Below are positions 1-35,402 of a DNA stretch of 64,000 bases, piece after piece. Position numbers and translations under genes: made by a program. Under the pieces are notes generated by a model that did no database searches, was not told where the DNA came from, and worked only from the letters and a program-made list of their open reading frames with translations. Each line of letters opens with the position of its first letter. The stretch's first letter is position 1. Source of the DNA: an uncultured Thermoplasmatales archaeon (GTDB taxonomy: Archaea; Thermoplasmatota; E2; UBA202; DSCA01); contig CAZESS010000007.1 of the NCBI GenBank assembly GCA_964514975.1, positions 1 to 64,000 of the forward strand, given 5' to 3'.

Positions 1-88
1 GATCTTCGATGACTTCGCCGTATTTGACGCTGCCTGGGTCGGTGCAGGTATCGCCATTGAAGTGTAGGCAGAACTCGCACTGGACCAT
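1..88 (-). CDS. Small Cys-rich protein (5' part; runs off the window), paralogue of 32881..33063
   Basis: Reverse complement reads MVQCEFCLHFNGDTCTDPGSVKYGEVIED versus MVQCEFCLNYNGDTCTDSGGVKYGEVIED in the other copy. Confidence 0.8.
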   Translation of the reverse strand, partial: MVQCEFCLHFNGDTCTDPGSVKYGEVIED

Positions 89-188
89 ATGATTACACGA
101 GGAATGCTTATTAAAAATGGTTTCCGAACACTTGACCACATCGGGGGTTCAAGCCAAGCTCGTGGTCTAAGGAATATGACCACTAGCT
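1..188. repeat. Left copy of long inverted repeat (partner 32781..32968)
   Basis: Hand alignment of 1-170 with the reverse complement of 32799-32968 is ungapped with 21 mismatches; weaker similarity continues to 188/32781. Confidence 0.95.
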
Positions 189-293
189 AAAATTACAACC
201 ACTAAGGGCCTATGCCAAACCCGTTATTTGTTGATATAATAGCGATATATTTGTCTGGGACAAAATATTAATGTTAAGTTTTGATAAACCGAT

Positions 294-980
294 ATGGAGG
301 AATTATTGTTAATACCGTGTTGTGGGAGTAAAGTATCTGGGGGTATCATTGGAAAGCAAGGACGGAAGGTTGAAGATACTCTCGATGAGTCCTCTCGAAA
401 ACGATTAAGGGTGTTACGGAAGGAGGTTGCTGGTTCATTTGGATTCAATTTTGATGATGAGAAGCTTCCTGCTTTTAAGCGCTATTCGGGCAATTTATAT
501 GGAAAGATTTCTGATGGAACCTGGAAAATTTTGAGCCAAGATAGCGATCTTGAACTAGCGATTATTTCGGCACTATATGGGGTGATTCTATGGGATGAGT
601 ATATCATTAATTATAATGTGGCGATGGGTGATAATATTTATGCGGGGCGGAAATTGAATACGTGGTGGAGGCAGCATGGCCTTGCAGATATAGTTGCCTC
701 ATTTATCGCTAGGAAGAAAGTGAGAAGGGTGCGGTCTTTTCTCTCTGGAGATTATCGGCAGGCGGTATCTGGGCCTATGAATACCTGGGATGGTGTATGG
801 TTGCAGTATGAATATCCTGGGTTGGGATCTGGTAGCAATTATTATCGTGGGGAGGATGTGACACGGGTGATACGGGATAGGGGAATTGCATGTCCTGCGT
901 GTGCATCTCGGGAGACTCGGCGGATTGCACGGAATTCATTTGAGTGTCTGGAATGTGGAGGTACGTATGAGCCCGAGTAG
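294..980 (+). CDS. YaaA/DUF6884-like protein with C-terminal zinc ribbon
   Basis: LLIPCCGSK, LPAFKRYSGNLY and IISALYG motifs; C-terminal CPAC...CLECG. Confidence 0.65.
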   Translation: MEELLLIPCCGSKVSGGIIGKQGRKVEDTLDESSRKRLRVLRKEVAGSFGFNFDDEKLPAFKRYSGNLYGKISDGTWKILSQDSDLELAIISALYGVILWDEYIINYNVAMGDNIYAGRKLNTWWRQHGLADIVASFIARKKVRRVRSFLSGDYRQAVSGPMNTWDGVWLQYEYPGLGSGSNYYRGEDVTRVIRDRGIACPACASRETRRIARNSFECLECGGTYEPE

Positions 981-1674
981 AAAGGAAGATTTAGACCAAT
1001 TGTACGGGCTGCTATGTGAACTAGAGAGCCGTCTTAATGGAAAGCGGGTCCTTGATTCCTGCCACGGTAGAATGGGTTGGCCAGAGCGAGGTGTGTATTT
1101 TTTCTTCTCTGCGGACAAGGAACGGAATGAGGATGGCGCATTGCGGGTTACTCGTGTGGGCACCCATGCTGTGAGTAGAGGTAGTGGTACCACCTTGTGG
1201 GGTAGGCTCCGAACGCATCGTGGGCCGCTTACAGGCAAGTATCCTGATGGCGGGAATCATCGTGGCTCGATTTTTCGACTGCGGGTTGGGGAGGCACTTA
1301 GAGAGAAATATGGGTTGCATGAGGAGTATCCAGACTGGGGAAGGGGATCGAGTGCTGGCCGGGATATTAGACAGAATGAGTATGAATTAGAACAGCAGGT
1401 GAGTGCATATATCAGAGAGATGCCATTTTTGTGGGTAAAGATTGTGGATGCGCCGGCATCGACAAGCAGACGTGCATATATCGAACGAAATGCTATTGCA
1501 TTATTAAGTAATTATAACAAGCCCTCGATAGATGAGAGAGCTGGCAAGTGGCTGGGAAACTATAGCCCCGTGGTAAAGATACGAAAATCGGGCCTCTGGA
1601 ATTCAAATCATGTAGATGAAGAGTATGACCCAATGTTTCTTGATGAATTAGAACGATATATTGCTGAAATGTAG
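967..1674 (+). CDS. GIY-YIG-like nuclease
   Basis: RGVYFF...TRVG...LWGRLRTH and a downstream IE motif. The ATG at 967, overlapping the upstream gene, is preferred over 886. Confidence 0.6.
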   Translation: MSPSRKEDLDQLYGLLCELESRLNGKRVLDSCHGRMGWPERGVYFFFSADKERNEDGALRVTRVGTHAVSRGSGTTLWGRLRTHRGPLTGKYPDGGNHRGSIFRLRVGEALREKYGLHEEYPDWGRGSSAGRDIRQNEYELEQQVSAYIREMPFLWVKIVDAPASTSRRAYIERNAIALLSNYNKPSIDERAGKWLGNYSPVVKIRKSGLWNSNHVDEEYDPMFLDELERYIAEM

Positions 1675-2058: not shown

Positions 2059-3129
2059 ATGGAAGTCGCTATCACAGCAGATGTACATCTTACTGACTAC
2101 GATAGCCATCCAGAAAGATACAACGCTTTAGAAGACATTTTGGAAACAATAACTAAAAAAAACAGTAGGGCTTTGATTGTTGCTGGTGATTTGTTTGATG
2201 CTTCCTCCAATAACTATGCTGACTTTGACCAGCTTGCCAGTAAATACTCAGAAATTCAATTTCATATTATCCCAGGCAATCATGACGAAACATTAAAAGA
2301 AGAAAATATACCTTCGGAAAATATTCATATTTATTCCGCACCATCCTTTGTCCCATTTGAAGGGCAAGACGAGCAATCTTTCCTATTCCTTCCATATCAG
2401 ACCGACAAGACCATGGGAGAGGCCATTGCTGAGATGCAGGATGAGTTGACTGATAATTGGATCCTGGTGGGCCATGGGGACTGGATGTCGGGGGTTGGTA
2501 CCACCAATGCATATGAACAGGGGGTCTATATGCCTCTTACTCGCCGAGATATTGACTTATTCAATCCTGTCTATGCCTTTTTAGGACACATACATAAACC
2601 TATGAAAGAAACCCATTTTTGTTATCCTGGATCGCCATGCGGAATGGACATCACTGAGACAGGCAGACGCAGATTTGTAATATACGATACATATAATAGA
2701 AAAATTGCTTCCTATCAGGTCAACACCGATATCATATATCACTCTGAAACCATTGTTCTTCTACCTCTGGAAGATGAAGAAACCCATCTGCGTGACAGGT
2801 TTACTGAAATAAAAGAGAGCTGGAATCTTACCGAAAGGGAGAAAGAGAAGACCCATATTAGAATAAAGATACGGGGGTTTACAAAAAACAAACGGCAAGT
2901 TAAAAGCATAGCAGCTGAGGAACTAGAAGATTTCAAATTTTATAATGATGAGGGTATTGACCTCTCTGAATTGTTTATGTCCGATAGTTATGAAAGGGAG
3001 GAAATTGCACAGCAGGTGAAGCAACACATCGCGGAACTGGACTGGTCAGCCAAGCATAATGAACCTGCAAAAGATGACATCTTGCTATATGCATTACGGA
3101 CAATATACGGTGAGGATTTATGGCAGTAA
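2059..3129 (+). CDS. Mre11/SbcD-family metallophosphoesterase (YhaO-like)
   Basis: ADVH, AGDLFD, PGNHD, GHG, LGHIH and YPGSP motifs. Confidence 0.9.
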   Translation: MEVAITADVHLTDYDSHPERYNALEDILETITKKNSRALIVAGDLFDASSNNYADFDQLASKYSEIQFHIIPGNHDETLKEENIPSENIHIYSAPSFVPFEGQDEQSFLFLPYQTDKTMGEAIAEMQDELTDNWILVGHGDWMSGVGTTNAYEQGVYMPLTRRDIDLFNPVYAFLGHIHKPMKETHFCYPGSPCGMDITETGRRRFVIYDTYNRKIASYQVNTDIIYHSETIVLLPLEDEETHLRDRFTEIKESWNLTEREKEKTHIRIKIRGFTKNKRQVKSIAAEELEDFKFYNDEGIDLSELFMSDSYEREEIAQQVKQHIAELDWSAKHNEPAKDDILLYALRTIYGEDLWQ

Positions 3130-5207
3130 GCATAAAAGAAATTAACATTCAAAACCTCGGACCAATCCAGGAATGCAAATGGGAACTAGGTACTCTCAAT
3201 GTGATACATGGTAAAAATGAAACGGGTAAAACCTACCTCGTAGAATTTCTCATTCGCTCTCTGTTCAAAAAACAGAATTGGCATCTCCGATCCCAGTTAG
3301 GTCGAGGAAAAATCATAGTCGAGGGACTGGGAGATACGGCCCAGTCGTTCTCGCCGTCAAGTGATACAACATTGGAAGATTATTATCCGGCTCTAGGGGA
3401 AGGCATATCGCCGGATTTATCCAATCTTCTTGTCATTAAAGGTGCTCAAGTCGAACTTGGCGCTGGGGGCGATGTGGATAGGACAATACTAAAAAAATAT
3501 TTGTCCAGTAAAAAAATTCTTGGCACCATTGAAGAAACCATTTACTATAAAACCATCCAAGATGCAAGTATCGAAGGGCACCACATCATCGCCAGCAGCC
3601 GAGGGCCTATTTCTACACGAGAAGACTTACAAACTCAACACGGAAAAATTAACGAACTTTTTGAGGAAATAAACGAAAAATATTCCGGGGGATATAGAAA
3701 ACAACTGGAGCAGCAAAAAATACAGCTTCAAGAAAAAATAACGCAGATGGAACAAGCAAAAAAACATAAGGCATATCTGCTCTCAAATCAAAAAGAAACC
3801 CTTAATCATCAACGTCAGACATACGATAAAGAGAAACTGGAATCTCTATTGCGCGATATCGAACGTTACCATGATAACAAAGACCAGCTCGAACGCACCA
3901 AAAAACGATATCAGCAAGCAGTAAAGAAAAGCAAACATTTCGAATGGCTCCAACAAGCTGCACAAGACTATGAAGCATTAATAAACAAAGTTACGACAGA
4001 GTCAACCTCTCTTGTTTATTTGCCCCTCATAATCCTGCTTTTAGCTGTTTCTGCGATTATTCTATTGTTCTATCCAATAGCCGCTCTCATTCCGATTTGT
4101 GGGGCTATCATTACGGTAATATTATACTGGCGGACTACTCGTCAGAGAGATAATAAGCCTGGAGTCCAAGATGAGATAAATAATATCGGTCGGGCTTTTG
4201 AAGAAAAATTGGGGGAGCCATTGACAGATGTTTCTCAGCTCAAAAATGAAATGGAAAATCAGAAGGAAGCATATCATCAGACACAGATGCTTGAATCAGA
4301 AGTAGAAGAGACTCAAAGGGACGTACACCAGTTGAAAAGACAAATTTGCGACAGTATTAAAACTATTACTGGCGAAGACGTTGAACTAGGTCAATGGAAA
4401 AGCGCCGTTGAAGAACAGTTGGCAGAATTAAAGAATCTCGATGACCAGATTAACGCACTTCATAACCAGCTTTTACAATTAGATGTTGACGAAACAGATT
4501 ATGTTGAAGAAGAACAACCGGCTGAATACGACCAAGCAGAATATGAGACATTAAAGCGCAAACTTCAGGACATAGAAGGCAGGATTGAAGATACAGATTA
4601 CGCTTTATCCTCGCTCAGGGATAGAATTCGGGATGTTACCGGTGATGATGTATCCGCTTCGTGGGAAACTCTCATACAGCATTTGAGAGAGAAACGCAAT
4701 GACATAATTCAGCGGTACAAGCATGTGACAGCAAAGATTGTCGGGCAAATCGCAGTAATGGACGTTCTCAAAGAGTTTAGAAAGCAGGAGGATAAAAAAA
4801 TCGTTGATAATATTCAAAGCGAGGTGGTAAGAAGACCTCTATATGAGGTTACTCAGCGTTACACTGACTATAAACTTGATGATAACACATTATATGTCAG
4901 CAATGACATCGAGGAATTTTCGTTGAATGAGTTGAGCACTGGCGCGCAAGAGCAGGTCTTTCTGGCGTTGCGTATGGGCTTTTGCTCGCGGATGTTGAAG
5001 AACCAATCTGCCTTTTTTATTTTTGATGATGCATTCCAATACTCCGACTGGGACCGACGAGAGTTGCTCATAGACAAGGCTGTTGATCTTGCTACCAATG
5101 GATGGCAGATTATCTACTTCACTATGGATGACCATATCAAACAATTGTTCGATCGCTCTGGAGCAAGCCTCGGTGACCAGTATAAGTCTTTCGAGCTAAC
5201 AATCTAG
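3120..5207 (+). CDS. Rad50/SbcC-like coiled-coil ABC ATPase (YhaN-like) with a hydrophobic hairpin
   Basis: Walker A GKNETGKT, signature LSTG, Walker B FIFDD, long coiled coil, central hydrophobic stretch; overlaps the upstream gene. Confidence 0.88.
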   Translation: MAVSIKEINIQNLGPIQECKWELGTLNVIHGKNETGKTYLVEFLIRSLFKKQNWHLRSQLGRGKIIVEGLGDTAQSFSPSSDTTLEDYYPALGEGISPDLSNLLVIKGAQVELGAGGDVDRTILKKYLSSKKILGTIEETIYYKTIQDASIEGHHIIASSRGPISTREDLQTQHGKINELFEEINEKYSGGYRKQLEQQKIQLQEKITQMEQAKKHKAYLLSNQKETLNHQRQTYDKEKLESLLRDIERYHDNKDQLERTKKRYQQAVKKSKHFEWLQQAAQDYEALINKVTTESTSLVYLPLIILLLAVSAIILLFYPIAALIPICGAIITVILYWRTTRQRDNKPGVQDEINNIGRAFEEKLGEPLTDVSQLKNEMENQKEAYHQTQMLESEVEETQRDVHQLKRQICDSIKTITGEDVELGQWKSAVEEQLAELKNLDDQINALHNQLLQLDVDETDYVEEEQPAEYDQAEYETLKRKLQDIEGRIEDTDYALSSLRDRIRDVTGDDVSASWETLIQHLREKRNDIIQRYKHVTAKIVGQIAVMDVLKEFRKQEDKKIVDNIQSEVVRRPLYEVTQRYTDYKLDDNTLYVSNDIEEFSLNELSTGAQEQVFLALRMGFCSRMLKNQSAFFIFDDAFQYSDWDRRELLIDKAVDLATNGWQIIYFTMDDHIKQLFDRSGASLGDQYKSFELTI

Positions 5208-5236
5208 AGCAACTTGTATAGCACGATACTTTTTTA

Positions 5237-5929
5237 TCAACCAAATTTTTCGATGATATGCTTCAATTCAGATGGATGATTGATTGTATAGTGGGCAGAG
5301 TTTGTACAATTCTCAAAATAGTTACGATCACCATAGGCGGCATATACTGTAGTTAACCCAAGTTTATTGCCAGGTTCGATGTCCCGTTGCAAGCTGTCCC
5401 CTACGAGTAGTGTGTTCTCAGGCTGCACACCGAGTTTTTGCATCACATAATTAAACGGGGCGCTGGCTGGCTTTTTATCTCCTACTTCTTCGCTTGATAC
5501 CACGATATCAAAATATGGGAGAAGATCCGTTTTTTCTAACCGTTGTCGCGCCCTTATAATCGTTGCATCTGTTAGCAATCCGAGTTTGATTCCTAGTTGT
5601 TTCAGATGGCTCAGCATATGTTTTATTCCTTCGTAGGGTTTTAGTGTGTCAAGTTTTTTTGTTTCATAGAGGTCTACGCATTGTTTGTAGACAGCGTCGG
5701 TATGAAGGTTTTTGTCTCTGAGATAGTCAGCGATGTTTTCTGGGTTTTCGATGCCTTTGCCGTTTTTCATGAAATAATTGAGAAGTTCTTGATGATCCTG
5801 GGCGTCTAGGTGATTGACGATTGCTTTACATGCCTGTATTTTTGTTTCTATGAAGTCGAACAGGGTATTGTCCATATCGAAAATGATGGCTTTTATTGAG
5901 GTATGTTGAGGGTTTGTAGCTTTCGGCAT
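5237..5929 (-). CDS. HAD-superfamily hydrolase/phosphatase
   Basis: FDMDNTL motif I, KKP, VGDSLQRD motif IV. Confidence 0.9.
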   Translation of the reverse strand: MPKATNPQHTSIKAIIFDMDNTLFDFIETKIQACKAIVNHLDAQDHQELLNYFMKNGKGIENPENIADYLRDKNLHTDAVYKQCVDLYETKKLDTLKPYEGIKHMLSHLKQLGIKLGLLTDATIIRARQRLEKTDLLPYFDIVVSSEEVGDKKPASAPFNYVMQKLGVQPENTLLVGDSLQRDIEPGNKLGLTTVYAAYGDRNYFENCTNSAHYTINHPSELKHIIEKFG

Positions 5930-6912
5930 AATTTGAGGTGTTTCATAAACTGATTTGCTTTTTCATTGTCAAGTAAACGAAGCTTGAGTTCGGTTGCTCT
6001 GTTCACTGTTTTACCGCGGTATTCTCCGAATATTATAGCGGAGTTAAGTTTGATGAACCCAAAGATAACAGCAGTGGTATATAGAAGTTTAATCATGTGA
6101 CGGTGAGAGCACTGATCAACCTTGAGGGTGTGAGGTGCTTCAAAGAGGAAGTATTCGAGAGTTTCCGTGTCGCAGAGGTCGGCCATGGCGTCATCAGCGG
6201 TGAGGAGCACGGGGAGCATATCTTGCTCCTTTTCTTTTTGGCGGAGGGTTTTTACGATGATTTCGTCATTGTGTCTGGTATCGGATGAGGAAGGTTCAGT
6301 GCCTTTAATGGCGATGCTTTTTCCGGCTATGCTTTGGTATTCTTGTTTAGCAAGGTATGCTGCCAGTCTTGACTTTTTTGTTTTTCCGTTATATAATTCT
6401 TCGAAAAGATGCTTGTTATAGGGAGTTTGTTGTTTGAGGGAGATGATGTTGTTGTGAGTATACTTGTAGTTGAGAGCTGCAGTTATCTCATTTTTGACGG
6501 TGTCGATAGTAAGTAGTTCAGGGCTTGCTAATGGTCTATCATGGGCAGATAGAAAACGGTAGTAGTAGAGATTGGTGTCGAGACAAAAAGTAACTTGTTT
6601 TTTCAGGTGACGATAGCTTTTTAGATTTTTATAAAATTCGGTGACGTTGGTATAGTCTTGTATTCCACTGGCGAGCATACAGGTGCGAAGATCGCTATAG
6701 GATGGCATATCTTCGTAGAGATCGGTAAATGGCGTTTTTCCGTCATCGAATTGTTCAGGTGAGCTGTCCAGAGAAAGTTCGTAGCCGGTGTCTACTGGTT
6801 TCGCTGTTAAGATAGTGAAGCCATACGGTGGATAGGAAATTTGGAGCCGTTTAGGATATAGATTCAGTAAAATCTGCAGTTCTGCTGGCTCAATAGTAAT
6901 TTCAGTTGTCAT
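5893..6912 (-). CDS. PIN-domain ribonuclease
   Basis: CLDTN...E...D...LLTADD acidic PIN pattern. Confidence 0.8.
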   Translation of the reverse strand: MTTEITIEPAELQILLNLYPKRLQISYPPYGFTILTAKPVDTGYELSLDSSPEQFDDGKTPFTDLYEDMPSYSDLRTCMLASGIQDYTNVTEFYKNLKSYRHLKKQVTFCLDTNLYYYRFLSAHDRPLASPELLTIDTVKNEITAALNYKYTHNNIISLKQQTPYNKHLFEELYNGKTKKSRLAAYLAKQEYQSIAGKSIAIKGTEPSSSDTRHNDEIIVKTLRQKEKEQDMLPVLLTADDAMADLCDTETLEYFLFEAPHTLKVDQCSHRHMIKLLYTTAVIFGFIKLNSAIIFGEYRGKTVNRATELKLRLLDNEKANQFMKHLKLCRKLQTLNIPQ

Positions 6913-7415
6913 GGTTCCGCCCGATGGTATTCTTCCATGAAATCTCGAAGGTGTTGTATTCGTAAGGGAAGCATCATATAGGGTTTAGCTGCATTTTCGA
7001 GAGAAGCTATGTCCAGGTAGAAAATATTATTGACACCGATACGGACCGCCGGGATCAGCGCCGCGGTCACCAAGGCTTTTCGGCCAGGGGTCACATCTAT
7101 AGAGATGTGCCAGTTGTCCTGTTTATGTTCTTGTACCAATTTGAAGAACTGATCCCCAATTTTGTTGAAGTTTCCTGTGGCAACCATGGAACCTATTGTG
7201 CTTTCACAGTTAAAAGTGCTTCCAACACAGCCAATGGCTTCAGTGGCTGTATCGAGATACTCTGTATATTGTTCTTCGGCTACAACAATTATTTTTTCGG
7301 GCGTGATCGAGGTTTCTTGAAGGACCGCATAATAGGAGTTGACCAGCGCCCATATACTCCGCCCAAGGATGGTGATGTAGACGCTTTCCGATTTTTCTTG
7401 CTCCGTTTGGGTCAT
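6909..7415 (-). CDS. Stand-alone CARF-like domain protein
   Basis: N-terminal ITILGRS and IDVTPGRK match CARF motifs I and II; 168 aa with no effector domain. Confidence 0.75.
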   Translation of the reverse strand: MTQTEQEKSESVYITILGRSIWALVNSYYAVLQETSITPEKIIVVAEEQYTEYLDTATEAIGCVGSTFNCESTIGSMVATGNFNKIGDQFFKLVQEHKQDNWHISIDVTPGRKALVTAALIPAVRIGVNNIFYLDIASLENAAKPYMMLPLRIQHLRDFMEEYHRAEP

Positions 7416-9028: not shown

Positions 9029-9041
9029 ATTATTTCCCTCA

Positions 9042-11114: not shown

Positions 11115-11118
11115 TTTA

Positions 11119-22600: not shown

Positions 22601-22712
22601 GTCTGGATAAGTTACTAAAGATTTATTAATTTTTAGATAGCGGATTTGGAATACAACAAAATTTTTTAAAAGATTAAACCATTGTCCCATTACGAAATGG
22701 AGGAAACCATAC

Positions 22713-25700: not shown

Positions 25701-25829
25701 TGGATCCACATCATATTCCTTGAGGGATATGCCGCTGAAAAATTCGTGCAGGACATCAACGAACGGGTTGCAGAGTTTACCACGGGTAGCTCATATGACA
25801 TCGAGGTTGAGCCCGTGGAGGAAGGATAA
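22713..25829 (+). CDS. DUF499-family ATPase (BrxC/PglY-related)
   Basis: FFANTYPT, TGLGGGKTH, LILLDEL, SYPFHP and TRGVLRLL motifs. Confidence 0.9.
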   Translation: MAKNSQLSSIYEGCKPRSEILEGALRLEAFAANLSMVAQDEGPNIYKDPETFFANTYPTEGLKTTIREVFGRLTGSREGSPVIKLETGLGGGKTHTLIALYHIARHGSTIKNIGELLDELQVEPMSVAALVGTELAVGGSMPPKTLWGEMAQQLRGDEGYAILKASDESMTSPGERVLRELFGDENCLILLDELAQYLTKASATPIPESGSNLGKQTAAFLQELTQVAASMDNVELVLTALDEKSVYEDETKNIRDVLEAALEEEEIRKNVQDTKEILTRIVRTLEPTKGEEFAHIIRHRLFEDIDASVREKVVEAYLDGYRSDGVKEFLPSETQDPEYREVMIKSYPFHPEVIDILRTKTSSIENFNKTRGVLRLLSVLLKNTWDNRDEYAPSLIHPYHFDFYDDTIRAELIHRLDMVELMPAIGEDLANEDKETRAEVVDKMFKEPYGSRVTTTVLLHSLTQKLKADIHKGANSAEVHLAMWKPGLDPETVNAVLEHLDETWFYFGPEGQYYVAGLNPRLTKIIDDTKEQIGQTSVNQEVEDWIRKVFHAKKFFKPVFFPSSPSDVNDDTKQQTKLAVMHYTDCRLEHGSQRIPDLVRKIFEETGSQGKPRSFINNLVFLVPDTDRVKQMQAQARQYLALRQLIQEYEGGASYLSALTKGQRQDLRQKRDETELYLKVAVIIAYKHVIVPTPQASLSQASSQRPLRVISMRDTERDIENRLQEGETAEESLASFLRDREVARTMDDKPLSPERILDGLWRKTAEQLDGDEFKKLFYKNPLAGIHFSDELIRKSMKKGIQEGKWYAVAADNFYDEENWQSFNPTFTTDTIIILADSEAGKEKHDQYYCSTCGKRKTECICDKQPKAPEETCPKCGRKKSECICGPKPISTFEKKGLTMERIGSNLQAWIDDEDIQKIRVARFGALSRTALSALAKALKQFRTDYEVIFDIKGEMTRPEEEMEFELRYRGGEEGFRKLKSAIFDFKPQDEFDFSELWIHIIFLEGYAAEKFVQDINERVAEFTTGSSYDIEVEPVEEG

Positions 25830-25831
25830 AT

Positions 25832-26284
25832 ATGGCACGGAAGCGTCTTGGTTACAGGTTGGCGGTAAAACCTCTCTCTGATGACGACTTTAAATGTCTG
25901 TTACGAGCGGAGCCAGTAGTTGACTCTGATGCTCCTTCTGGAAGAAAAAGCCGACTGGTGTCCTCGTTGAACGGGTGGCGGCTCGACGTGGCCATGGGCT
26001 TCATAAAACGGATGCTGAAGGAGGAAAGATACAAGCCATCACGTCTGAATCGTAGCAGGAAAACACCATTCCAGCTTGACGAGCAACATGGAGCAAAACT
26101 CGACTTGGTATTCCGAGCCATCAAGGACATCCAGAAACGAACAAAAATGGAAGAAATCATCTATGGCATCGAGGGAATGAGTGGTGAGGAGGCGCTCTAT
26201 TGGCATTCAAAGCTTGAGCAGGACTTCAAACGGCCAGAGAAAAGAGCATTGAAAGCACTACGAATCATGCTTGGAGGAGAATAA
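25832..26284 (+). CDS. Small accessory protein of the DUF499 system (DUF3780-like position)
   Basis: Lies between the ATPase and the methylase; MSGEEALYW...RALKALRIML C-terminus. Confidence 0.7.
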   Translation: MARKRLGYRLAVKPLSDDDFKCLLRAEPVVDSDAPSGRKSRLVSSLNGWRLDVAMGFIKRMLKEERYKPSRLNRSRKTPFQLDEQHGAKLDLVFRAIKDIQKRTKMEEIIYGIEGMSGEEALYWHSKLEQDFKRPEKRALKALRIMLGGE

Positions 26285-26285
26285 A

Positions 26286-29057
26286 ATGGAAGAAATACAA
26301 AGAGATGAATATGGACGACCACGCGTATTTTTAGAAGGAGACAACGTGCCAGTGCAGGAGCTTGGAGTGGAATGTCAACGGGAGGGGGGAGCAGGGTTAC
26401 ATCCTCCTGTAAATCGGCTACATGTTTGGTGGGCGCGTCGGCCTTTAACCGTGAGTCGAGCGGCAATTTTAGGTTCCCTTCTCCCTGAAAGGTATGACAG
26501 TAACGACTTTTTGGAATTAATGGGTATACCGCCAAGCAAGGATCCAGTGAAAGCAAAAAAAATAATTGAAGAAGTAAAGGCTGGGCTTCGAAAACGTGTG
26601 AGTGACCCGTATGGATATGATAGGGCTTTTAAAAACGAGTTAACTGCATCAAAGATTTCAGAGCTCCACGATGTTTTGGCGAAAACGTGGAATGAAAACG
26701 ACATTGTATTGCTAGATTCCTTTGCTGGCGGCGGTTCCATACCATTCGAAGCAAAAAGGCTAGGGCTTAATGTGGTCATGAATGAATTGAACCCGGTCGC
26801 TTCTGTCATTGAACGGGCAACAATTGAGTATCCCTCTTTATTCGGAAAGGAACTGCTGGACGATATTGAAAAATGGGGAAAAAAGATAGAAGAATCAATA
26901 GAAAACCAACTCTCTGAATATTTCCCTCGAAATCAAGGAGAAAAAAATTTGTGTTACATCTGGGTTCGTACAGTAACATGCCCCCACTGCGAACTTAAGG
27001 TGCCACTGTCCCCAAATTTCTGGTTGGACAAAGAAAATAATATTGGCTATAAACTGGTGCTTCCTGAAAATGGAAACGAATGCCGTTTTAAGATAGCAAA
27101 AAAATCAGATGATTTCGACCCGGGTAAAGGCACGGAATCTCGTGGGAAAGGACGATGTCCCCGTTGTGGAGAAGTTATAGAAGGTAAAGAAATAAAGCGA
27201 CAGGCTAAAAATGGAGATATGGACCATCAAATGGCGTGTGTTGGTTTCAAGATGGAAGGAAGGAGTGGGAGACATTTCCGTGAAGTTACAGAGATGGACC
27301 TTGAAGGATATAAAAAAGCAGAGCAATTAATTGAAAAAAAATTGCCAAAATTAAAAGCAAAAGGATTGATACCCGAAGAAGATTATCCTCAAGTTACTAA
27401 CGATTCAAGACCGCATAACTATGGCATGCAACAGTGGTATAAATTTTTCAATTCTCGTCAGCTTTTAGTCCATACTACTACCATGGAAGCAATATTAGGC
27501 AAACTAGGTGATGAAATAAGGGACGGAAAAAAACGTGAGGCTTTACGAGTATATATGCAATTAGCGTTTGATAAATGTATAGACTATAATTCAATACAAA
27601 CCAGGATGCATTCAACCAGAACTGTAATGGTTAATACTTTCGATAGACATGATTTTTCATTTAAATGGTCGTATGGAGAAATAGATGGGGCTGGACAATT
27701 ATTTAGATGGGCAATTAGTCAAATACTCGATGCGTATGAAAATTTAGTTGAGTTAATAGGAGATGCAGAAAACAATACAAAGTATTATGCCAGAGACGCA
27801 GCCAACTTAATTGACATTATTGACAAGTCTATTGATGCCGTTGTTATTGATCCACCTTATTATGACAATGTGATGTATGCAGAATGCTCTGACTTCTTTT
27901 ATGTCTGGATGAAACGCGGCCTCAGCGATATATTCCCAGAACTATTTTCTCCAGAGCTAACCAATAAAGAGGATGAAGCCGTTGCAAACAGGGCGAGGTT
28001 CAAAGATGCTGCTAGAGGAAAGAAAAAACAGCTTGCCGAACAGGATTATGAAGCCAAGATGGCTGCCGCCTTTCGGGAGATGCATCGAGTACTCCGTGAT
28101 GACGGCGTCATGACGGTGATGTTTACTCATAAAAAGACAAAAGCGTGGAATGCACTTGCTAGGGGACTCATGGACTCAGGATTCGAAATCACATCGGCAT
28201 GGCCTATACATACGGAGAGTCAGCATTCACTGCATCAAGCCAAGAAAAACGCAGCTGCATCCACCATTCTGTTGACCTGTCGGAAACGACCTGAAGACAA
28301 TGGTACTGGCTGGTGGGAGGAGCTCCGACCACAGCTTGAAGAACGGGTCAAAGAACAAGCAGAAATATTTGAACAACAGGGAATCAGCCGCCTCGACCTC
28401 TCAATCGCCTGTTTCGGCACCGCTCTTGAAACTATTTCAGAAAAATGGCCAGTGAAACGAGGCGACGGTACCATCATTTCGCCTGAAGAAGCGCTTGATG
28501 CAGCCCGAGAGGTGGTATCCCAATGGTTCATGGACAAAATTACAAGCGGGGAACGAAAAGCAGTTGACCCTGCAACGCAGTTCTACATACTTGCCTGGTA
28601 CATCTTCCAGGCGCGGAAATTCCCGTATGATGAGGCACGGAAGCTCTCACTTTCTGTCGGCGTCAGTCTCGACGACCTAAAACGACGGAAGCTCTGGCGG
28701 AAGAAAGGCAAATATATCATGCTTCGAAAGCCATCCGACAGAACAGTCCAGGGTGGACTGAAAGCTGGAAAGAAAACCAACAAGTGGCATATCGACTACG
28801 TCCACGCCGCGATGCTCGAATACGAAGAAGAAGGCGCCCAGGGACTCAAACGATTCCATCAGAACAGCGACGCCATGGAGCAGCCTGGCTATCGACATGC
28901 CATCTCCTACCTGCTCGACGTACTCCCACGGACAGAAGAAGTCACCGAGTATCACACACTGGAAAGCATGTGGGAGTCAACGTATCACGACGTGGTGGAC
29001 AGAAAACGACCTGCAAAAACGGTTGAAGGGCGGCAAACGCGCCTCGATGGAGTATAG
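26286..29057 (+). CDS. DUF1156-family adenine DNA methyltransferase
   Basis: LHVWWARRPL, DSFAGGGSIP, DPPYYDNV, CxxC pairs; GGAGG upstream of the ATG. Confidence 0.92.
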   Translation: MEEIQRDEYGRPRVFLEGDNVPVQELGVECQREGGAGLHPPVNRLHVWWARRPLTVSRAAILGSLLPERYDSNDFLELMGIPPSKDPVKAKKIIEEVKAGLRKRVSDPYGYDRAFKNELTASKISELHDVLAKTWNENDIVLLDSFAGGGSIPFEAKRLGLNVVMNELNPVASVIERATIEYPSLFGKELLDDIEKWGKKIEESIENQLSEYFPRNQGEKNLCYIWVRTVTCPHCELKVPLSPNFWLDKENNIGYKLVLPENGNECRFKIAKKSDDFDPGKGTESRGKGRCPRCGEVIEGKEIKRQAKNGDMDHQMACVGFKMEGRSGRHFREVTEMDLEGYKKAEQLIEKKLPKLKAKGLIPEEDYPQVTNDSRPHNYGMQQWYKFFNSRQLLVHTTTMEAILGKLGDEIRDGKKREALRVYMQLAFDKCIDYNSIQTRMHSTRTVMVNTFDRHDFSFKWSYGEIDGAGQLFRWAISQILDAYENLVELIGDAENNTKYYARDAANLIDIIDKSIDAVVIDPPYYDNVMYAECSDFFYVWMKRGLSDIFPELFSPELTNKEDEAVANRARFKDAARGKKKQLAEQDYEAKMAAAFREMHRVLRDDGVMTVMFTHKKTKAWNALARGLMDSGFEITSAWPIHTESQHSLHQAKKNAAASTILLTCRKRPEDNGTGWWEELRPQLEERVKEQAEIFEQQGISRLDLSIACFGTALETISEKWPVKRGDGTIISPEEALDAAREVVSQWFMDKITSGERKAVDPATQFYILAWYIFQARKFPYDEARKLSLSVGVSLDDLKRRKLWRKKGKYIMLRKPSDRTVQGGLKAGKKTNKWHIDYVHAAMLEYEEEGAQGLKRFHQNSDAMEQPGYRHAISYLLDVLPRTEEVTEYHTLESMWESTYHDVVDRKRPAKTVEGRQTRLDGV

Positions 29058-29060
29058 AGT

Positions 29061-32000
29061 ATGGGTCTCGGAGACCTCCAATATAAACGCGTCTATGTGT
29101 CCTGCGTTGACAATCTCGTAGAAGACTTCTATATCCCCACGCTGTCAGAGAGTGTCCTCTACCAGCGGAAAACTGGCTATTTCAACAGCCGTGCCCTGGC
29201 CATGGCAGCCCGAGGCATCTCAGGCTTGCTTGAGAAAGGCGGTAAAATGCAGTTGCTCTGCTCCGTCGAACTTGACATCGACGACCAAGATGCACTTAAA
29301 GATCCTCATAGATACCTCCATGACCATGAGGAAGACGTCATCGAGCAATTGCATCAGCCCTATGACGAGATAGAAAAGAAACGCCTAGCATTGCTCGCAA
29401 AGCTCCAGGCGCGAAATGCTCTTGAAATTCGGGTCTGCGTGAAACAAGGCGGCATCTACCATGAAAAGACAGGGATTTTTGCTGATGAAGATGGCAACTA
29501 TGTGGTGTTCACTGGGTCTGGCAACGAGACACCAGGCGGATGGATAAACAACATGGAAAATTTTTCCGTGTTTAATTCATGGGATAGCAAAGAATATGCT
29601 GACGAACACCGAGAAATTTTTGAGCGGCAATGGAACGGAGAATTCCCTGGCCTGCAAACCTATCCTGTTTCCACCGCTATCTATGAGAACATCGCAAGGT
29701 TTAGCGATTATTATAAGGAGGGCATGGATGAGCCGGTTGACCCTGCAGACACGGGGATAGCTGAATACCGAGAGGACTGGGAATGGGCCCCTGAGCTGGC
29801 GTTTATATCAGAGGCACAACGGTTGTGGAATTACCGCGACTTTGCCTATGGAAGAACCGCGGTAACCCCCTATGACCATCAGGATTACATAGCGTCTCAG
29901 GCGCTGGAGGAATGGCCTCCTCGCTATATTCTTTGCGATGAAGTTGGTCTCGGTAAGACTATCGAGGCGGGCATGATAATCCATGGGTATATCGCCTCAG
30001 GACATATCCGTCGCCTTCTCATCTTGGCGCCCAAACATGTGCTTAAACAGTGGCAGCAGGAGTTGTACAGCAAGTTCGGGTTGAAGGTATGGCGGCTTGA
30101 CGGAGCCCATGTTTATGGACCGAAATTCCATCCCGAGCATGAGCCGGAGCAAGCACCGTTAAACCCTGAAAATCCCTTTGCAACGAAAGACATGATGCTC
30201 GTCTCCAGCCAATATGCCCGTCTGGATAATCGGCAGGAACAACTCCTCAATACATATTTCGACATGGTCGTCCTCGACGAGGCCCATCACGCTCGCGCGC
30301 ACTATAAAGGCGGGAGTAGACAGCCCAATAAGCTATTGCAGCTTCTCCAGAGATTGCGGTATCGGACACAGGGCATGCTGCTGCTTACCGCCACACCAAT
30401 ACAGGTAGACCGACGGGAGCTATGGGATCTCCTCAATGTGCTGGAGCTTCCTGGCAAATGGCAAAGTCCAGATAAATTCAACGAATTTATACGGGCGCTG
30501 GATGCTGAACATATGGACTGGGGTTTTCTCTTGAAGATGGCAAGTGAATATTATGAGCAAGAGATCGAAGACCCCTCAGAGATTACAACCAACATTCGAG
30601 AAGACCATCCTGATGTAAATATTCCCAAACTGCTCGATATCCTGAGCAAACGAAGGACAGAAGAGGCTTACCATCTCTCCGAAAAAGAAAAAGAAGCTCT
30701 CCGTTTGATAGTCTATCGAAGCACCCCTATCAGAGGAATGGCGTTCAGGCATACCCGAGAACTATTAAAGAAATACAAGGATGAAGGAAAATTCGATGGC
30801 AAGATAGCAGATAGGCAGCCACATAAAATTTCTATCACTCTACATGGAAGCGAGGACAACGCGACATCTGAGGCAGGTATCTATGAGCGGATAGGGGAAT
30901 ACGTGAAAGAATATTATGGGAAATACAAAAACATACGAAAAGGCCTTGGATTTGTTATGGTCACATATCGGAAACGGCTTACGTCCTCATTTGAAGCCAT
31001 CAAAATAAGCCTTCAAAGACGATATAAAAAACTCGATAAGGCTCTCCAAACAGGTGACCCTTCAATACTCTTCTCGGGGATATTGGATGAAAATATTGAC
31101 TGGGAAGAGCTTGAAGGCTCCGCGGATATCGAAGACTTTGAAGAACTCGACCTTGCACGAAGCGACGTCAAGGGGGCGTTGCAGCGAGATAAAATCGTGG
31201 AGCGCATGCTGTATCTCATCCAAGAAGAAAAACAATATCTCCAAAGCCTCGTGCATGACCTTGAAAATTTGACAACAGATTCGAAGCTCGAAAACTTCAG
31301 AGAACGGCTGACGAATCTCACCAACCAGGGTATCAGCCAAATAATTGTTTTTTCCCAGTTTAAGGATACCGTCAACTATCTAAAGGACATTTTTTCACAT
31401 ACTTTCGGAGAACGAGTTGGTACCTATACCGGTGACGGCGGCATATATTTTGAAGATGGCGATTGGCGTACATGCTCAAAACAGGAAATCCAGGAAAAAT
31501 TCAGGGACAATAAGGACCCCCTGTCAATTTTGTTTTGCACTGATGCTGCCAGTGAGTCCCTCAACCTACAAACCTGTTCACACATGTTCAACTACGACAT
31601 CCCATGGAACCCCATGCGAATCGAGCAGCGGATAGGACGTGTCGACCGCATCGGGCAAGAAGCACCCGAGGTCCACATATATACCTACAGCTACAAGGAC
31701 ACCGTCGAGGAGAGGGCATTTTATCGATGCCTCGACCGCATCGATTTCTTCAGGACTACCCTTGGAAACATCCAACCTATTTTAGAAGCTACAAGAAAGG
31801 CCATTCATGATGCGACAATGGAACAAGAAGAATCCCAGGAAGATGATGTTATCGAAGAACATTTCAAATCAGTCGCAGAGATCGAAGAGGACACCACCAT
31901 TAAGTTTTTGTTAAACACATATGAGCCCCAATTTGAAAGACTGCATGAGCGGGTACCTGTCAAACAGGATAAATTCGAGCAAATATTATCTAACCGTTTA

Positions 32001-32738
32001 CAGCAGATGGGGTGGACCAAACAGGGTAATGTATGGGAAAAAAATGATAAAAAGGTTACATTTGATCTCGAAGCCTTTGACCGAACAGGGGAAGAGGCGC
32101 TGCCGCTTACGCCAAAAATGAATCTAGCAGAAATATTTGGCAATCTCCCACCTGTTCCAGAAAAAATGGAAAACGATGGAGTTGAAGTTCGACGCGTGGA
32201 AGCGGAAGGATATACGGGGTTCTTGGTCTCAAGCAATAGTGGTTATAGGCTAGCGCGGACCATTGATGATTTAACTGGTATGCGCCAGGGCAGAGTTTAT
32301 CATTCAGTTGAGGATGGTAAAGAAGGACTCGCTAGAAAGGTAGAGCAGTTAGAACAACAAAACCTTAAGAGCTCGTTGCAAATCTGGCAACAAAGATATA
32401 AGAACTGGAACACACGGGTTGAAATGTATCTTGATGAGCTATTCAAATGGGTTAAAGAACAAGAGATACAGCCTGGCTCGCTCGAAACCTTCGGGAAGGA
32501 CGAACTTATTGGATACTGGAAAAGATATCTCTCAGAGTCACAGAGAAAAAATCTGCAGGCACTTGCCGAGCACATTAACTATGGCCCCGATCCTCAAATT
32601 GAAGTAACACGGACCAAGGGGAGAAAACGGAGAAGTCCACGTGATTCTCAGAAGGAAGAAATGTTCCTGAAAGAACTACAGAGGATAAACGAGAAGATAC
32701 AATCGCTTAGACAGCGTGAGGTACAACTCGAAAAATAA
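29061..32738 (+). CDS. PLD (HKD) nuclease - SNF2 helicase fusion
   Basis: HEKTGIFAD...GSGNET, DEVGLGKT, DEAHH, LTATP and EQRIGRVDRIGQ motifs. Confidence 0.92.
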   Translation: MGLGDLQYKRVYVSCVDNLVEDFYIPTLSESVLYQRKTGYFNSRALAMAARGISGLLEKGGKMQLLCSVELDIDDQDALKDPHRYLHDHEEDVIEQLHQPYDEIEKKRLALLAKLQARNALEIRVCVKQGGIYHEKTGIFADEDGNYVVFTGSGNETPGGWINNMENFSVFNSWDSKEYADEHREIFERQWNGEFPGLQTYPVSTAIYENIARFSDYYKEGMDEPVDPADTGIAEYREDWEWAPELAFISEAQRLWNYRDFAYGRTAVTPYDHQDYIASQALEEWPPRYILCDEVGLGKTIEAGMIIHGYIASGHIRRLLILAPKHVLKQWQQELYSKFGLKVWRLDGAHVYGPKFHPEHEPEQAPLNPENPFATKDMMLVSSQYARLDNRQEQLLNTYFDMVVLDEAHHARAHYKGGSRQPNKLLQLLQRLRYRTQGMLLLTATPIQVDRRELWDLLNVLELPGKWQSPDKFNEFIRALDAEHMDWGFLLKMASEYYEQEIEDPSEITTNIREDHPDVNIPKLLDILSKRRTEEAYHLSEKEKEALRLIVYRSTPIRGMAFRHTRELLKKYKDEGKFDGKIADRQPHKISITLHGSEDNATSEAGIYERIGEYVKEYYGKYKNIRKGLGFVMVTYRKRLTSSFEAIKISLQRRYKKLDKALQTGDPSILFSGILDENIDWEELEGSADIEDFEELDLARSDVKGALQRDKIVERMLYLIQEEKQYLQSLVHDLENLTTDSKLENFRERLTNLTNQGISQIIVFSQFKDTVNYLKDIFSHTFGERVGTYTGDGGIYFEDGDWRTCSKQEIQEKFRDNKDPLSILFCTDAASESLNLQTCSHMFNYDIPWNPMRIEQRIGRVDRIGQEAPEVHIYTYSYKDTVEERAFYRCLDRIDFFRTTLGNIQPILEATRKAIHDATMEQEESQEDDVIEEHFKSVAEIEEDTTIKFLLNTYEPQFERLHERVPVKQDKFEQILSNRLQQMGWTKQGNVWEKNDKKVTFDLEAFDRTGEEALPLTPKMNLAEIFGNLPPVPEKMENDGVEVRRVEAEGYTGFLVSSNSGYRLARTIDDLTGMRQGRVYHSVEDGKEGLARKVEQLEQQNLKSSLQIWQQRYKNWNTRVEMYLDELFKWVKEQEIQPGSLETFGKDELIGYWKRYLSESQRKNLQALAEHINYGPDPQIEVTRTKGRKRRSPRDSQKEEMFLKELQRINEKIQSLRQREVQLEK

Positions 32739-32780
32739 TCGCTTGACGATAACCTGTTTTTCTATACTTAACAAACCCCC

Positions 32781-32968
32781 CGGTCGTGTTAATGTTCTTT
32801 AGACCACGAGCTTGGCTTGAACCCGCGATGTAGTCAAGGGTTCGGAGATCATTTTTTATATGCATTCACATTATATTCATATGGTCCAGTGCGAGTTCTG
32901 CCTGAACTATAACGGCGATACCTGCACCGACTCAGGCGGCGTCAAATATGGCGAAGTCATCGAAGATC
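32781..32968. repeat. Right copy of long inverted repeat (partner 1..188)
   Basis: Position x pairs with 32969-x throughout, without gaps. Confidence 0.95.
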
Positions 32969-35398: not shown

Positions 35399-35402
35399 CG
35401 TA

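What the first reader, a model, noticed from the sequence alone, without database searches (positions are those of the whole stretch)
1..32968. 32.6-kb defence cargo bracketed by inverted repeats, each carrying an outward-facing small Cys gene
Seen: 1-170 is the ungapped reverse complement of 32799-32968 (21 mismatches), and every defence gene lies between the copies. The best-conserved non-coding stretch is 26 identical bp located 57-82 bp upstream of the ATG, better conserved than the promoter-ATG spacer. Inference: an invertible, excisable or captured cargo block, or two sister elements meeting head-to-head around shared cargo. The ends look like neither IS termini nor tRNA att sites.
Basis: partly seen in the sequence, partly recalled or inferred. 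Interest (0 to 1): 0.85.

Follow-up and report, generated by a model that had tools for sequence, protein, structure and literature searches.

The report
Small-gene inverted repeat inside archaeal island
The inverted repeat is real, but it is two diverged copies of a tiny cysteine-rich gene inside a much larger mobile island that sits at a glycine tRNA gene of an uncultured archaeon and carries anti-virus defence genes: an ordinary kind of island with one curious internal duplication.

Summary
The repeat is confirmed: window 1-183 is the reverse complement of 32786-32968 at 86%. Window base 1 is also base 1 of contig C7 of a 66-contig Thermoplasmatota MAG, so the assembly cuts the left arm.

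Each arm is the 5' part of a 60-aa, four-Cys gene plus 95 bp of its upstream region. That gene family occurs in 31 of 41 related genomes.

The arms are not the ends of the mobile element. The low-GC block belongs to an integrative element of at least 49 kb at an intron-bearing tRNA-Gly(CCC), window c37277-37397, which the default tRNA scan missed. A tyrosine integrase lies beside the tRNA. The far att site is on contig C27. Three of three same-genus relatives have that tRNA directly next to the C27 genes.

Three sister elements lie elsewhere in the genome. One has a 1.57-kb, 96% identical mirror of the integrase module at the end of contig C2. Synteny places that copy at a different tRNA.

The cargo includes Hma (a BREX-related system), McrB-like, Mokosh-like and UvrD-like genes.

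I found no evidence of inversion or excision at the repeat, though neither was properly tested. This is a known kind of element, and interest is modest.

The parts
1..88 (-). Left copy of the small Cys gene, first 29 codons only; cut by the start of contig C7
   Evidence: 80 of 88 nt and 25 of 29 aa identical to the right copy
89..183 (-). Upstream region of the left copy: a TATA-like box about 25-30 nt before the ATG, and the 26-nt identical block at 145-170
   Evidence: 78 of 95 nt identical to 32786-32880; similarity stops at 183/184
294..1674 (+). YaaA-like protein with a Zn-ribbon (294-980) plus a PDC-M57B-like protein (886-1674); candidate defence pair beside the left arm
   Evidence: PF03883, 6.9e-9; PDC-M57B, 8.3e-79
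2059..5207 (+). Metallophosphoesterase (2059-3129) plus a 695-aa coiled-coil ATPase with weak LmuB/SMC-like matches
5893..9028 (-). CARF-PIN-like protein (5893-6912), a 168-aa ORF, and a metallo-beta-lactamase/RMMBL nuclease-like protein (7412-9028)
9042..13338 (-). UvrD-type helicase (NERD+UvrD/GajB-like, 9042-11114) and an SF1 helicase like Mokosh MkoA (11119-13338)
   Evidence: C3a187, 4e-46; MkoA, 3.5e-68
13536..14333 (+). DUF772 transposase-like remnant inside the cargo
   Evidence: 8e-5, just below the Pfam cut-off
17521..22756 (-). 1,295-aa protein with EVE and McrB-like AAA_5 domains (18869-22756) and a 463-aa partner (17521-18912)
22713..32738 (+). Hma, a DUF499-centred BREX-related system: HmaC ATPase (22713-25829), DUF7680 (25832-26284), HmaB DUF1156 methylase (26271-29057), HmaA PLD-SNF2 helicase (29061-32738)
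   Evidence: 1.2e-111, 9e-83, 2.8e-66
32786..32880 (+). Upstream region of the right copy, with the 26-nt identical block at 32799-32824
32881..33063 (+). Right, complete copy of the small Cys gene (60 aa; invariant C4, C7, C15, C36; conserved C-terminal FDDxFF tail)
   Evidence: no Pfam or PHROG match
33204..33755 (-). XRE-type HTH plus CBS-domain regulator
   Evidence: HTH_3, 2.2e-13; CBS, 1.4e-20
33746..34977 (+). Two paralogous ORFs of unknown function (223 and 197 aa, 25% identical to each other)
35748..36689 (-). Tyrosine integrase
   Evidence: Phage_integrase, 1.2e-26; phrog_1, 6.6e-34; a 99.4% identical copy lies on C2
36686..37234 (-). 183-aa ORF between the integrase and the tRNA, conserved in the sister elements. 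By my reading of the sequence it may be a ribbon-helix-helix protein; no family matched.
37240..37302 (-). attL region: the last 26 nt of the tRNA, then a 12-nt palindrome (TTTACTAGTAAA-like) 5 nt beyond the tRNA end. The 16-nt core shared with attR is 37277-37292.
37277..37397 (-). tRNA-Gly(CCC) with a 49-nt intron: the integration target
   Evidence: aragorn with introns allowed; missed

Best explanation
The organism is an uncultured Thermoplasmatota archaeon.

SHOWN
- The low-GC block is most of an integrative element of at least 49 kb. The element sits at the 3' end of an intron-bearing tRNA-Gly(CCC) gene.
- Next to the tRNA lies a backbone: a 183-aa ORF, a tyrosine integrase, three unknown ORFs, an XRE-CBS regulator and a small Cys gene.
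- Beyond the backbone lie about 32.6 kb of defence genes, then a second, inverted, 86% identical copy of the small Cys gene with its promoter. The contig ends inside that copy.
- After a gap, the element resumes on contig C27. There it has an IS-like repeat end, DNA-modification genes and a 2,491-aa surface protein. It ends at an attR that repeats the last 16 nt of the tRNA.

INFERRED
- The integrase recombines a circular form with tRNA-Gly genes across that 16-18 nt core. A 12-nt palindrome flanks the core on both sides in the deduced attP.
- The cargo protects the host, and so the element, against viruses.
- The inverted repeat is not an element end and not a switch. It is a pair of paralogues of a lineage-specific, probably zinc-binding micro-protein gene, each with its own TATA-type promoter and probably a leaderless transcript.
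- The pair most likely arose by duplication, or by recombination among the four sister elements in this genome. It now marks the two edges of the cargo bay.
For: Contig edge: window = G000:C7:1-64000.

Composition: GC is 0.38-0.51 over 1-36 kb and 0.53-0.61 beyond. Large contigs of the genome are mostly 0.56-0.63.

tRNA and integrase: tRNA-Gly(CCC) with a 49-nt intron at c37277-37397; integrase beside it.

attR: a 38-nt string (palindrome, 7 nt, then the last 18 nt of a tRNA-Gly) is identical at C27:~11691-11729, C4:~10616-10655 and C13:~29638-29676. C27:1-11 kb is also low in GC.

Empty site: in 3 of 3 same-genus relatives where this tRNA sits on a contig with flank (G002:C96, G004:C34, G003:C22), its 3' side adjoins orthologues of the genes at C27:11787 onwards.

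Sister elements:
- C2:158039-159595 is 96.3% identical to window 35750-37315, with the integrase 99.4% identical in protein.
- In 2 of 2 relatives examined (G003:C1, G001:C106), the C2 tRNA adjoins orthologues of C4:11252 onwards.
- C13 has a complete 9.8-kb low-GC insert at tRNA-Gly(TCC). C1 has an integrase 48% identical in protein beside tRNA-Ser.

Nature of the repeat:
- It is the gene plus 95 bp, with a sharp inner edge.
- The gene family has a match in 31 of 41 related genomes and has four invariant Cys.
- A third paralogue, 57% identical in protein, is at C2:126941-127120.
- The upstream 95 bp is shared by no other copy: by eye across 12 other loci, and the 26-mer was found nowhere else.

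Left copy continues: in run X1, contigs at about 15x depth carry the left-copy letter at 32932. Two contigs differ from the right copy at 32998, which is beyond the mirror of base 1.

Cargo identities.
Against: - The join from C7 base 1 to C27 rests on synteny and on the att repeat across two contigs. No contig bridges it, and no contig end in the MAG overlaps the C7 start.
- attL and attR share only 16 nt exactly, and one base of the T-arm differs.
- The join of the right arm to the backbone crosses a stretch that I infer is identical in both copies (32950-32997). The k=31 contigs of run X1 do not bridge it: one ends at 32821 and the next starts at 32967. So the orientation of the cargo relative to the backbone is not independently confirmed.
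- Why C7 stops at exactly that base is unexplained.
- The origin of the duplication is inference. The function of the small protein is unknown (AF2 mean pLDDT 52.6).
- No circular or excised form has been seen.
Confidence: 0.6

Rival explanations
1. Two sister elements meet head to head. The end of contig C2 (tRNA, 183-aa ORF, integrase, pointing off the contig) joins window base 1. The cargo then lies between two mirrored backbones, each at its own tRNA.
For: C2:158039-159595 mirrors window 35750-37315 at 96.3%, and C2:159882-160020 matches 35396-35534 at 77%. C2 ends 2 kb beyond its tRNA and C7 starts inside a small Cys gene, so the order and orientation would fit.
Against: In 2 of 2 relatives the C2 tRNA adjoins C4 genes, and C4 carries a matching attR. 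In 3 of 3 relatives tRNA-Gly(CCC) adjoins C27 genes. A head-to-head join would also need a chromosomal rearrangement that joins C4 to C27. No second XRE-CBS homologue is in the MAG. The C2 end and the C7 start share no overlap.
Confidence: 0.1
2. The inverted copies are a working recombination device. Either the 32.6-kb block inverts between them, or sister elements swap defence cassettes by crossing over in the small Cys genes that bound the cargo bay.
For: The arms sit exactly at the cargo edges. Assemblies break at or near this gene more often than expected: 7 of 25 and 9 of 22 matches lie within 250 bp of a contig end, against 1.75 and 3.07 expected. In G003 a 33-nt, 97% identical direct copy of the gene's 5' end lies 6.7 kb upstream of the full gene. 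In G002 an Hma system again lies next to XRE-CBS and a small Cys gene, at a different chromosomal place. Recombination between sister integrated elements is documented in Thermococcales (PMC8371274, passages read).
Against: The arms are only 86% alike. No invertase was found. Inversion would change no promoter-gene relation, because both genes read outwards from inside the arms. Across the order the gene's neighbours are mostly housekeeping genes. Contig breaks are also explained by several close copies of the gene in the sample.
Confidence: 0.12
3. The left arm is an assembly artefact: a mis-joined overhang at a contig end.
For: It sits at the very start of a contig of a fragmented MAG. In that MAG, 50 pairs of contig ends share 40-nt or longer words.
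Against: It is 86% identical to the right arm, not 100%, so it is not a fold-back of that arm. Run X1 holds the left-copy letter at 32932 at about single-copy depth. The junction at 183/184 lies in unique sequence. The C7 start shares no word with another contig end.
Confidence: 0.06

Closest known systems
Archaeal tRNA-targeting integrative elements with an intact tyrosine integrase next to the att site (reviewed in 'Archaeal tyrosine recombinases', PMC8371274; passages read)
   Same: An intact tyrosine recombinase gene beside a tRNA 3' end. A short direct repeat of the tRNA end at the far side. Several related copies in one chromosome. Atypical base composition. An empty site in relatives.
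   Different: The host is an uncultured Thermoplasmatota lineage. One element family uses three tRNA-Gly genes here, and a more distant member lies at tRNA-Ser. The cargo is mainly defence genes plus a giant surface protein. No excision or circular form has been seen. I did not place the integrase in the families of that review.
TKV2/TKV3-type recombination between related integrated elements in Thermococcus (as described in PMC8371274; passages read)
   Same: Paralogous integrated elements in one chromosome, offering inverted homologous modules. Here these are a 1.57-kb module at 96% and the 183-bp arms at 86%.
   Different: No inversion is shown here. The relative orientation of the contigs is unknown.
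Hma system, equal to the DUF499-centred BREX-related systems (PADLOC models; PMC12839542, passages read)
   Same: A three-part core on one strand: DUF499 AAA+ ATPase, DUF1156 N6-methylase and PLD-SNF2 helicase.
   Different: A 150-aa DUF7680 gene lies between the ATPase and the methylase. I did not determine the subtype (types 1-3 of that paper).
Defence-carrying integrative islands with conserved backbone modules, such as pipolins (PMC11551731) and integrated elements of Thaumarchaeota (PMC6563490); for both I saw only the listing and the start of the abstract
   Same: A conserved integration backbone plus an exchangeable defence cargo, flanked by tRNA-derived repeats.
   Different: No PolB and no virus hallmark genes were found. 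The cargo bay is bounded by two inverted copies of a small host-family gene. I did not see this described in the parts of those papers that I read.

Membership tests
tRNA-targeting integrative element (tyrosine recombinase type) | Tyrosine recombinase gene within the element, next to one end | tested here: met
   Window 35748-36689: Pfam Phage_integrase 1.2e-26; phrog_1 integrase 6.6e-34
tRNA-targeting integrative element (tyrosine recombinase type) | One end abuts the 3' end of an intact tRNA gene | tested here: met
   tRNA-Gly(CCC) with intron at c37277-37397; the 183-aa ORF starts 42 nt beyond its 3' end
tRNA-targeting integrative element (tyrosine recombinase type) | Direct repeat of the tRNA 3' end at the other end of the element | tested here: met
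   C27:~11714-11729 repeats the last 16 nt of the tRNA. It lies at the low-GC/high-GC boundary, next to the genes that flank the tRNA in relatives. It is on another contig, so its orientation is inferred.
tRNA-targeting integrative element (tyrosine recombinase type) | Empty site in related genomes | tested here: met
   3 of 3 same-genus relatives with this tRNA on a flanked contig
tRNA-targeting integrative element (tyrosine recombinase type) | Excision or a circular form | not testable with these tools
Hma / DUF499-centred BREX-related system | Adjacent DUF499 ATPase, N6-methylase and helicase genes | tested here: met
   HmaC 1.2e-111, HmaB 9e-83, HmaA 2.8e-66 and PLD_Helicase 2.7e-67, all on the + strand across 22713-32738
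Invertible DNA segment (site-specific inversion switch) | Near-identical inverted repeats with a recombinase acting on them | tested here: not met
   The arms are 86% identical with a longest identical run of 27 nt. No invertase family appears among the ORFs scanned. The only recombinase is the integrase, 2.8 kb outside the arms.
Invertible DNA segment (site-specific inversion switch) | Both orientations present in the population | not testable with these tools
The runs are kept as contigs only.
Composite transposon / IS-bounded block | Arms are IS copies with a transposase and terminal repeats | tested here: not met
   The arms encode a 60-aa host-family protein with its promoter. The only transposase-like ORF is a DUF772 remnant at 13536-14333.
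McrBC-type restriction | McrB-like AAA_5 GTPase with an adjacent McrC partner | tested here: inconclusive
   AAA_5 8.3e-18 and EVE 2.7e-6 in 18869-22756. The 463-aa neighbour has only a weak DUF6826 match and no PADLOC match.

The most novel reading that the evidence does not exclude
The small Cys gene with its promoter is a portable boundary module of this element family. Homologous exchange at these genes, or insertion into their 5' ends, loads and swaps defence cassettes. That would make the gene a recombination anchor for defence islands in this Thermoplasmatota genus. It would explain four observations: the two inverted copies at the exact cargo edges; the Hma/XRE-CBS/small Cys linkage at a different chromosomal site in G002; the defence genes on both sides of the gene in G004; and the direct 5' fragment 6.7 kb upstream of the gene in G003. 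It would also explain why assemblies break at this gene.
Probability: 0.12. Interest if true: 0.6.

Novelty: new member of a known kind. Interest (0 to 1): 0.35.

Why it matters
It places a family of tRNA-Gly integrative elements, with four copies in one 2-Mb genome, in an uncultured Thermoplasmatota lineage. These elements move a BREX-related Hma system and other defence genes, which adds archaeal examples of defence islands carried on mobile backbones.

It is also a caution for scans of MAG windows. The repeat at a contig edge looked like an element boundary. The true ends were an intron-bearing tRNA that the default scan missed and an att site on another contig.

The 60-aa four-Cys protein family is narrow, unnamed and often multi-copy. 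It may deserve a bench test, but nothing here shows what it does.

Tried and rejected
Extending the left arm
- The 26-mer has no exact match in metagenome contigs or viral contigs. Among 46 loci it occurs only in the window's own locus.
- In the genome, allowing up to 6 mismatches, it occurs only in the two arms plus one 6-mismatch hit on C9.
- No contig end in the MAG overlaps the C7 start.
- blastn of window 1-40000 against 47 public loci matched only the gene itself, plus parts of the Hma genes in G002.

Structure and naming of the small protein
- AF2 on 21 sequences gave mean pLDDT 52.6, so I ran no fold search.
- Pfam and PHROGs gave nothing.
- The ESM Atlas best score was 0.88, below its own 0.9 line.
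- The search for homologous proteins gave 9 unnamed hits.
- The profile search gave 30 representatives out of 1.84 billion at E <= 1e-3. All are 35-81 aa except one weak 1,528-aa hit.

General defence hot spot at this gene
- Rejected for the order as a whole. Among 54 upstream and 71 downstream neighbour ORFs from 47 public loci, the commonest families are FtsJ (4), TFIIB (4), SAM synthetase (5), Usp (4) and DEAD/ResIII helicases (4).
- HNH, HTH_3+CBS, SNF2 and AAA_21 occur only twice each.
- There was no control set.

Virus
- No relatives of the integrase or of the small protein are in viral contigs.
- I saw no capsid or terminase family.

Reads
- Runs X2, X3 (salt lake) and X4 (marine) have contig pieces on 32914-37300 at about 90-100% identity.
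- I saw little cover on 22000-32800.
- The loose ends and the 69-nt 'skip' at 37269-37373 turned out to be other organisms' tRNA-Gly genes matching the exons, not att junctions.

Synteny anchor
- The 418-aa protein at 38354-39610 belongs to a large multi-copy family, so it was no use as a single-copy anchor.

Other
- An att repeat inside window 1-37239 was not found.
- Literature: searches listed nothing on such elements in Thermoplasmatota. I did not search for the small protein family, which has no name to search by, so I make no claim about what is in print.
- Supplements of papers were not opened.
Full report
OBSERVATION
The inverted repeat is real. The repeat finder reports arms 1-183 and 32786-32968, 183 nt, 86% complementary. 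blastn gives E about 1e-56.

Base by base, the arms consist of two parts. The first is the opening 88 nt of a small ORF, with 80 of 88 nt identical. The second is the 95 nt upstream of its ATG, with 78 of 95 identical. Further inward identity drops to 11 of 47, so the inner edge is sharp.

So is the 26-nt identical block 57-82 nt upstream of the ATG (145-170 and 32799-32824).

The right copy (32881-33063, + strand) encodes 60 aa. The left copy reads outwards on the - strand from base 88 and is cut after codon 29.

THE CONTIG EDGE
The window is G000:C7:1-64000, so window base 1 is the first base of a contig. The MAG has 1.96 Mb in 66 contigs. The assembly therefore truncates the left arm, and the full length of the repeat is unknown.

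Record titles of related loci name Thermoplasmatota/Thermoplasmatales MAGs.

WHAT THE REPEATED UNIT IS
The 60-aa protein belongs to a narrow family:
- It has a match in 31 of 41 genomes of the same order, G000 included, usually in one or two copies.
- A profile finds 30 representatives among 1.84 billion proteins at E <= 1e-3. All are short stand-alone proteins except one weak hit.
- In an alignment of 21 members, C4, C7, C15 and C36 are invariant, and the C-terminus carries a conserved FDDxFF tail.
- It has no Pfam or PHROG family. AlphaFold2 gives only pLDDT 52.6.
- A third paralogue, 57% identical in protein, lies at C2:126941-127120.

The 95-bp upstream region is shared by the two C7 copies only. 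It is not seen upstream of the C2 copy or of 11 relatives' genes. The 26-mer occurs nowhere else that I could search.

Most copies have a TATA-like box about 25-30 nt before the ATG (my reading). This suggests leaderless transcripts and places the 26-mer where an upstream regulator site would sit. That placement is inference.

THE REAL ELEMENT
GC is 0.38-0.51 over 1-36 kb and 0.53-0.61 beyond.

Right of the right arm lie, in order:
- an XRE-CBS regulator;
- two paralogous unknown ORFs;
- a small ORF;
- a tyrosine integrase (35748-36689);
- a 183-aa ORF.

The default tRNA scan and Rfam found nothing. Loose ends of public contigs clustered at 37269-37311, which made me read the sequence there. 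ARAGORN with introns allowed then finds tRNA-Gly(CCC) with a 49-nt intron at c37277-37397.

A 38-nt string is identical at C27:~11691-11729, C4:~10616-10655 and C13:~29638-29676. It consists of a 12-nt palindrome, 7 nt, and the last 18 nt of a tRNA-Gly. Each site lies at a low-GC/high-GC boundary.

In 3 of 3 same-genus relatives that have tRNA-Gly(CCC) on a flanked contig, the tRNA's 3' side adjoins orthologues of the genes at C27:11787 onwards. So the element runs from window 37276 leftwards to base 1, across a gap, and through C27:1-11729. That is at least 49 kb.

The C27 part has three components:
- an end of a dispersed repeat at which several contigs stop;
- ADDT and Nmad3-NucS genes;
- a 2,491-aa beta-helix/PKD surface protein.

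SISTER ELEMENTS AND THE MIRRORED MODULE
C2:158039-159595 is 96.3% identical, in reverse orientation, to window 35750-37315. The integrase is 99.4% and the 183-aa ORF 93% identical in protein. C2 ends 2 kb beyond its own intron-bearing tRNA, which ARAGORN calls Gly(GCC).

However, in 2 of 2 relatives examined (G003:C1, G001:C106), that tRNA adjoins orthologues of C4:11252 onwards. C4:1-10655 is low in GC and ends in the attR string. The simplest layout is therefore two separate elements: C2 end to C4 start, and C7 to C27 start.

A third, complete 9.8-kb low-GC insert lies at tRNA-Gly(TCC) on C13. A fourth, with an integrase 48% identical in protein, lies beside tRNA-Ser on C1.

The inverted repeat is thus internal to one member of a four-member element family.

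CARGO
Between the arms lie:
- a PDC-M57B-like pair;
- a metallophosphatase with an SMC-like ATPase;
- a CARF-PIN-like protein;
- an MBL nuclease;
- a NERD/UvrD-type helicase;
- an MkoA-like helicase;
- a DUF772 transposase remnant;
- an EVE-McrB-like protein with a partner;
- a complete Hma system: HmaC 1.2e-111, HmaB 9e-83, HmaA 2.8e-66.

Hma is the DUF499-centred BREX-related system described in PMC12839542 (passages read).

WHAT PUBLIC CONTIGS ADD
Run X1 holds 94% of the sampled words and is probably the source sample.
- One k=31 contig covers 22000-32821 and stops there. The next starts at 32967, the mirror of window base 1 or 2.
- The contig on 32967-35090 has depth 14.9 against a baseline of 15, so the outer part of the right copy is not a collapsed two-copy repeat.
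- At 32932 the left-copy letter is carried by three contigs, 34.3 of 49.1 depth. Two of them carry further differences, so the sample holds at least four close variants of this gene piece. One, at about 14x, is not in the MAG.
- At 32998, beyond the mirror of base 1, two contigs (19.6 of 34.5) differ from the right copy. The left copy therefore continues past the contig start.

My inference is that the two copies are identical over about 32950-32997, which breaks k=31 graphs.

The bins over 35.3-37.3 kb sum to 25-38x. That fits the second, 96% identical integrase copy.

IS THE GENE A DEFENCE-ISLAND ANCHOR?
Within the genus there is some support:
- G002 has Hma, an Rce1-like gene, XRE-CBS and the small Cys gene in a row, at a place other than tRNA-Gly(CCC).
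- In G004 the gene lies between a type IIG enzyme, an HKD-Snf2 protein and a GmrSD-type protein.
- The C2 copy of G000 follows an HNH type IV-like gene and a radical SAM gene.
- In G003 the upstream genes are surface and zinc-ribbon proteins. A 33-nt, 97% identical direct copy of the gene's 5' end lies 6.7 kb upstream.

Across the order the neighbours are mostly housekeeping genes.

Matches lie within 250 bp of a contig end in 7 of 25 genome loci (1.75 expected) and 9 of 22 metagenome loci (3.07 expected). The loci are related, and one contig is counted in both sets. Several close copies in one sample may explain the breaks equally well.

VERDICT

The block is mobile defence cargo, and sister elements exist. 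But the arms are an internal pair of paralogous genes, not the ends of the element. The ends are a tRNA att pair, a well-known arrangement in archaea (PMC8371274, passages read).

Inversion or cassette exchange at the arms is neither shown nor excluded. The left neighbour of C7 is not in the MAG, and I could lay no reads on both arms together.

I rate this a new member of a known kind, with a small unexplained curiosity in the duplicated micro-protein gene.

Noticed in passing
window c37277-37397 and c38238-38340: Two intron-bearing tRNA genes that the default ARAGORN run and the Rfam gathering thresholds missed. The first is tRNA-Gly(CCC) with a 49-nt intron. ARAGORN calls the second Pro(CGG) with a 27-nt intron here, but calls its counterpart Tyr(GTA) in relatives.
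   Followed up: partly
G000 C27:~11691-11729, C4:~10616-10655, C13:~29638-29676; window 37240-37302: A 38-nt element end is identical in three places. A 12-nt palindrome (TTTACTAGTAAA) lies on both sides of the tRNA-derived core in the deduced attP. It is a candidate integrase binding site.
   Followed up: partly
G000 C27:3840-11315, C4:1575-7982; window 39808-63409: Giant beta-helix/NosD/PKD/Big surface proteins (2,135-3,110 aa) sit at the far ends of both broken elements and fill the chromosomal flank right of the tRNA. The 418-aa protein at 38354-39610 has dozens of partial matches per related genome.
   Followed up: partly
window 43988-44051 and 63399-63462: A 64-nt direct repeat, 89% identical, covers the start codon and upstream region of two giant surface-protein genes on the minus strand.
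   Followed up: no
L014 (G003:C23) 12461-12590 and 19189-19371: A 43-codon ORF starts with a 33-nt, 97% identical copy of the small Cys gene's 5' end. It lies 6.7 kb upstream of the full gene on the same strand. The stretch between holds zinc-ribbon proteins and a 1,057-aa surface protein.
   Followed up: partly
L022-L068: Matches to the small Cys gene lie within 250 bp of a contig end in 7 of 25 genome loci and 9 of 22 metagenome loci, about three to four times the expectation from contig lengths.
   Followed up: partly
G000 C2:152800-157950: A 5-kb low-GC stretch (0.43-0.52) on the 5' side of the C2 tRNA is absent in G001:C106, where the flanking gene lies about 300 bp from the tRNA.
   Followed up: no
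G000 contig ends (C4 start, C11 start, C17 end, C18 end; C27:32-86, C22 start, C10 end, C11 end): Many contig ends share 53-61-nt sequences; 50 pairs of ends share a 40-nt or longer word. This looks like the two ends of an unassembled multi-copy insertion sequence. One copy abuts the C27 part of the element and one abuts the C4 part.
   Followed up: partly
G000 C27:123-2006 (L086): An amino acid:DNA transferase-like gene (ADDT, 4.2e-16) and an Nmad3 domain fused to a NucS-type nuclease point to a DNA hypermodification-linked pair on an archaeal island.
   Followed up: no
window 32900-33000 in run X1: Besides the two assembled copies, a third variant of the small Cys gene piece at about 14x depth and a fourth at about 4x are in the sample but not in the MAG. 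The third could belong to the unassembled part of the sister element on C2/C4.
   Followed up: no
window 33746-34417 and 34384-34977: Two adjacent ORFs in the backbone are 25% identical paralogues with no family in Pfam or PHROGs.
   Followed up: no
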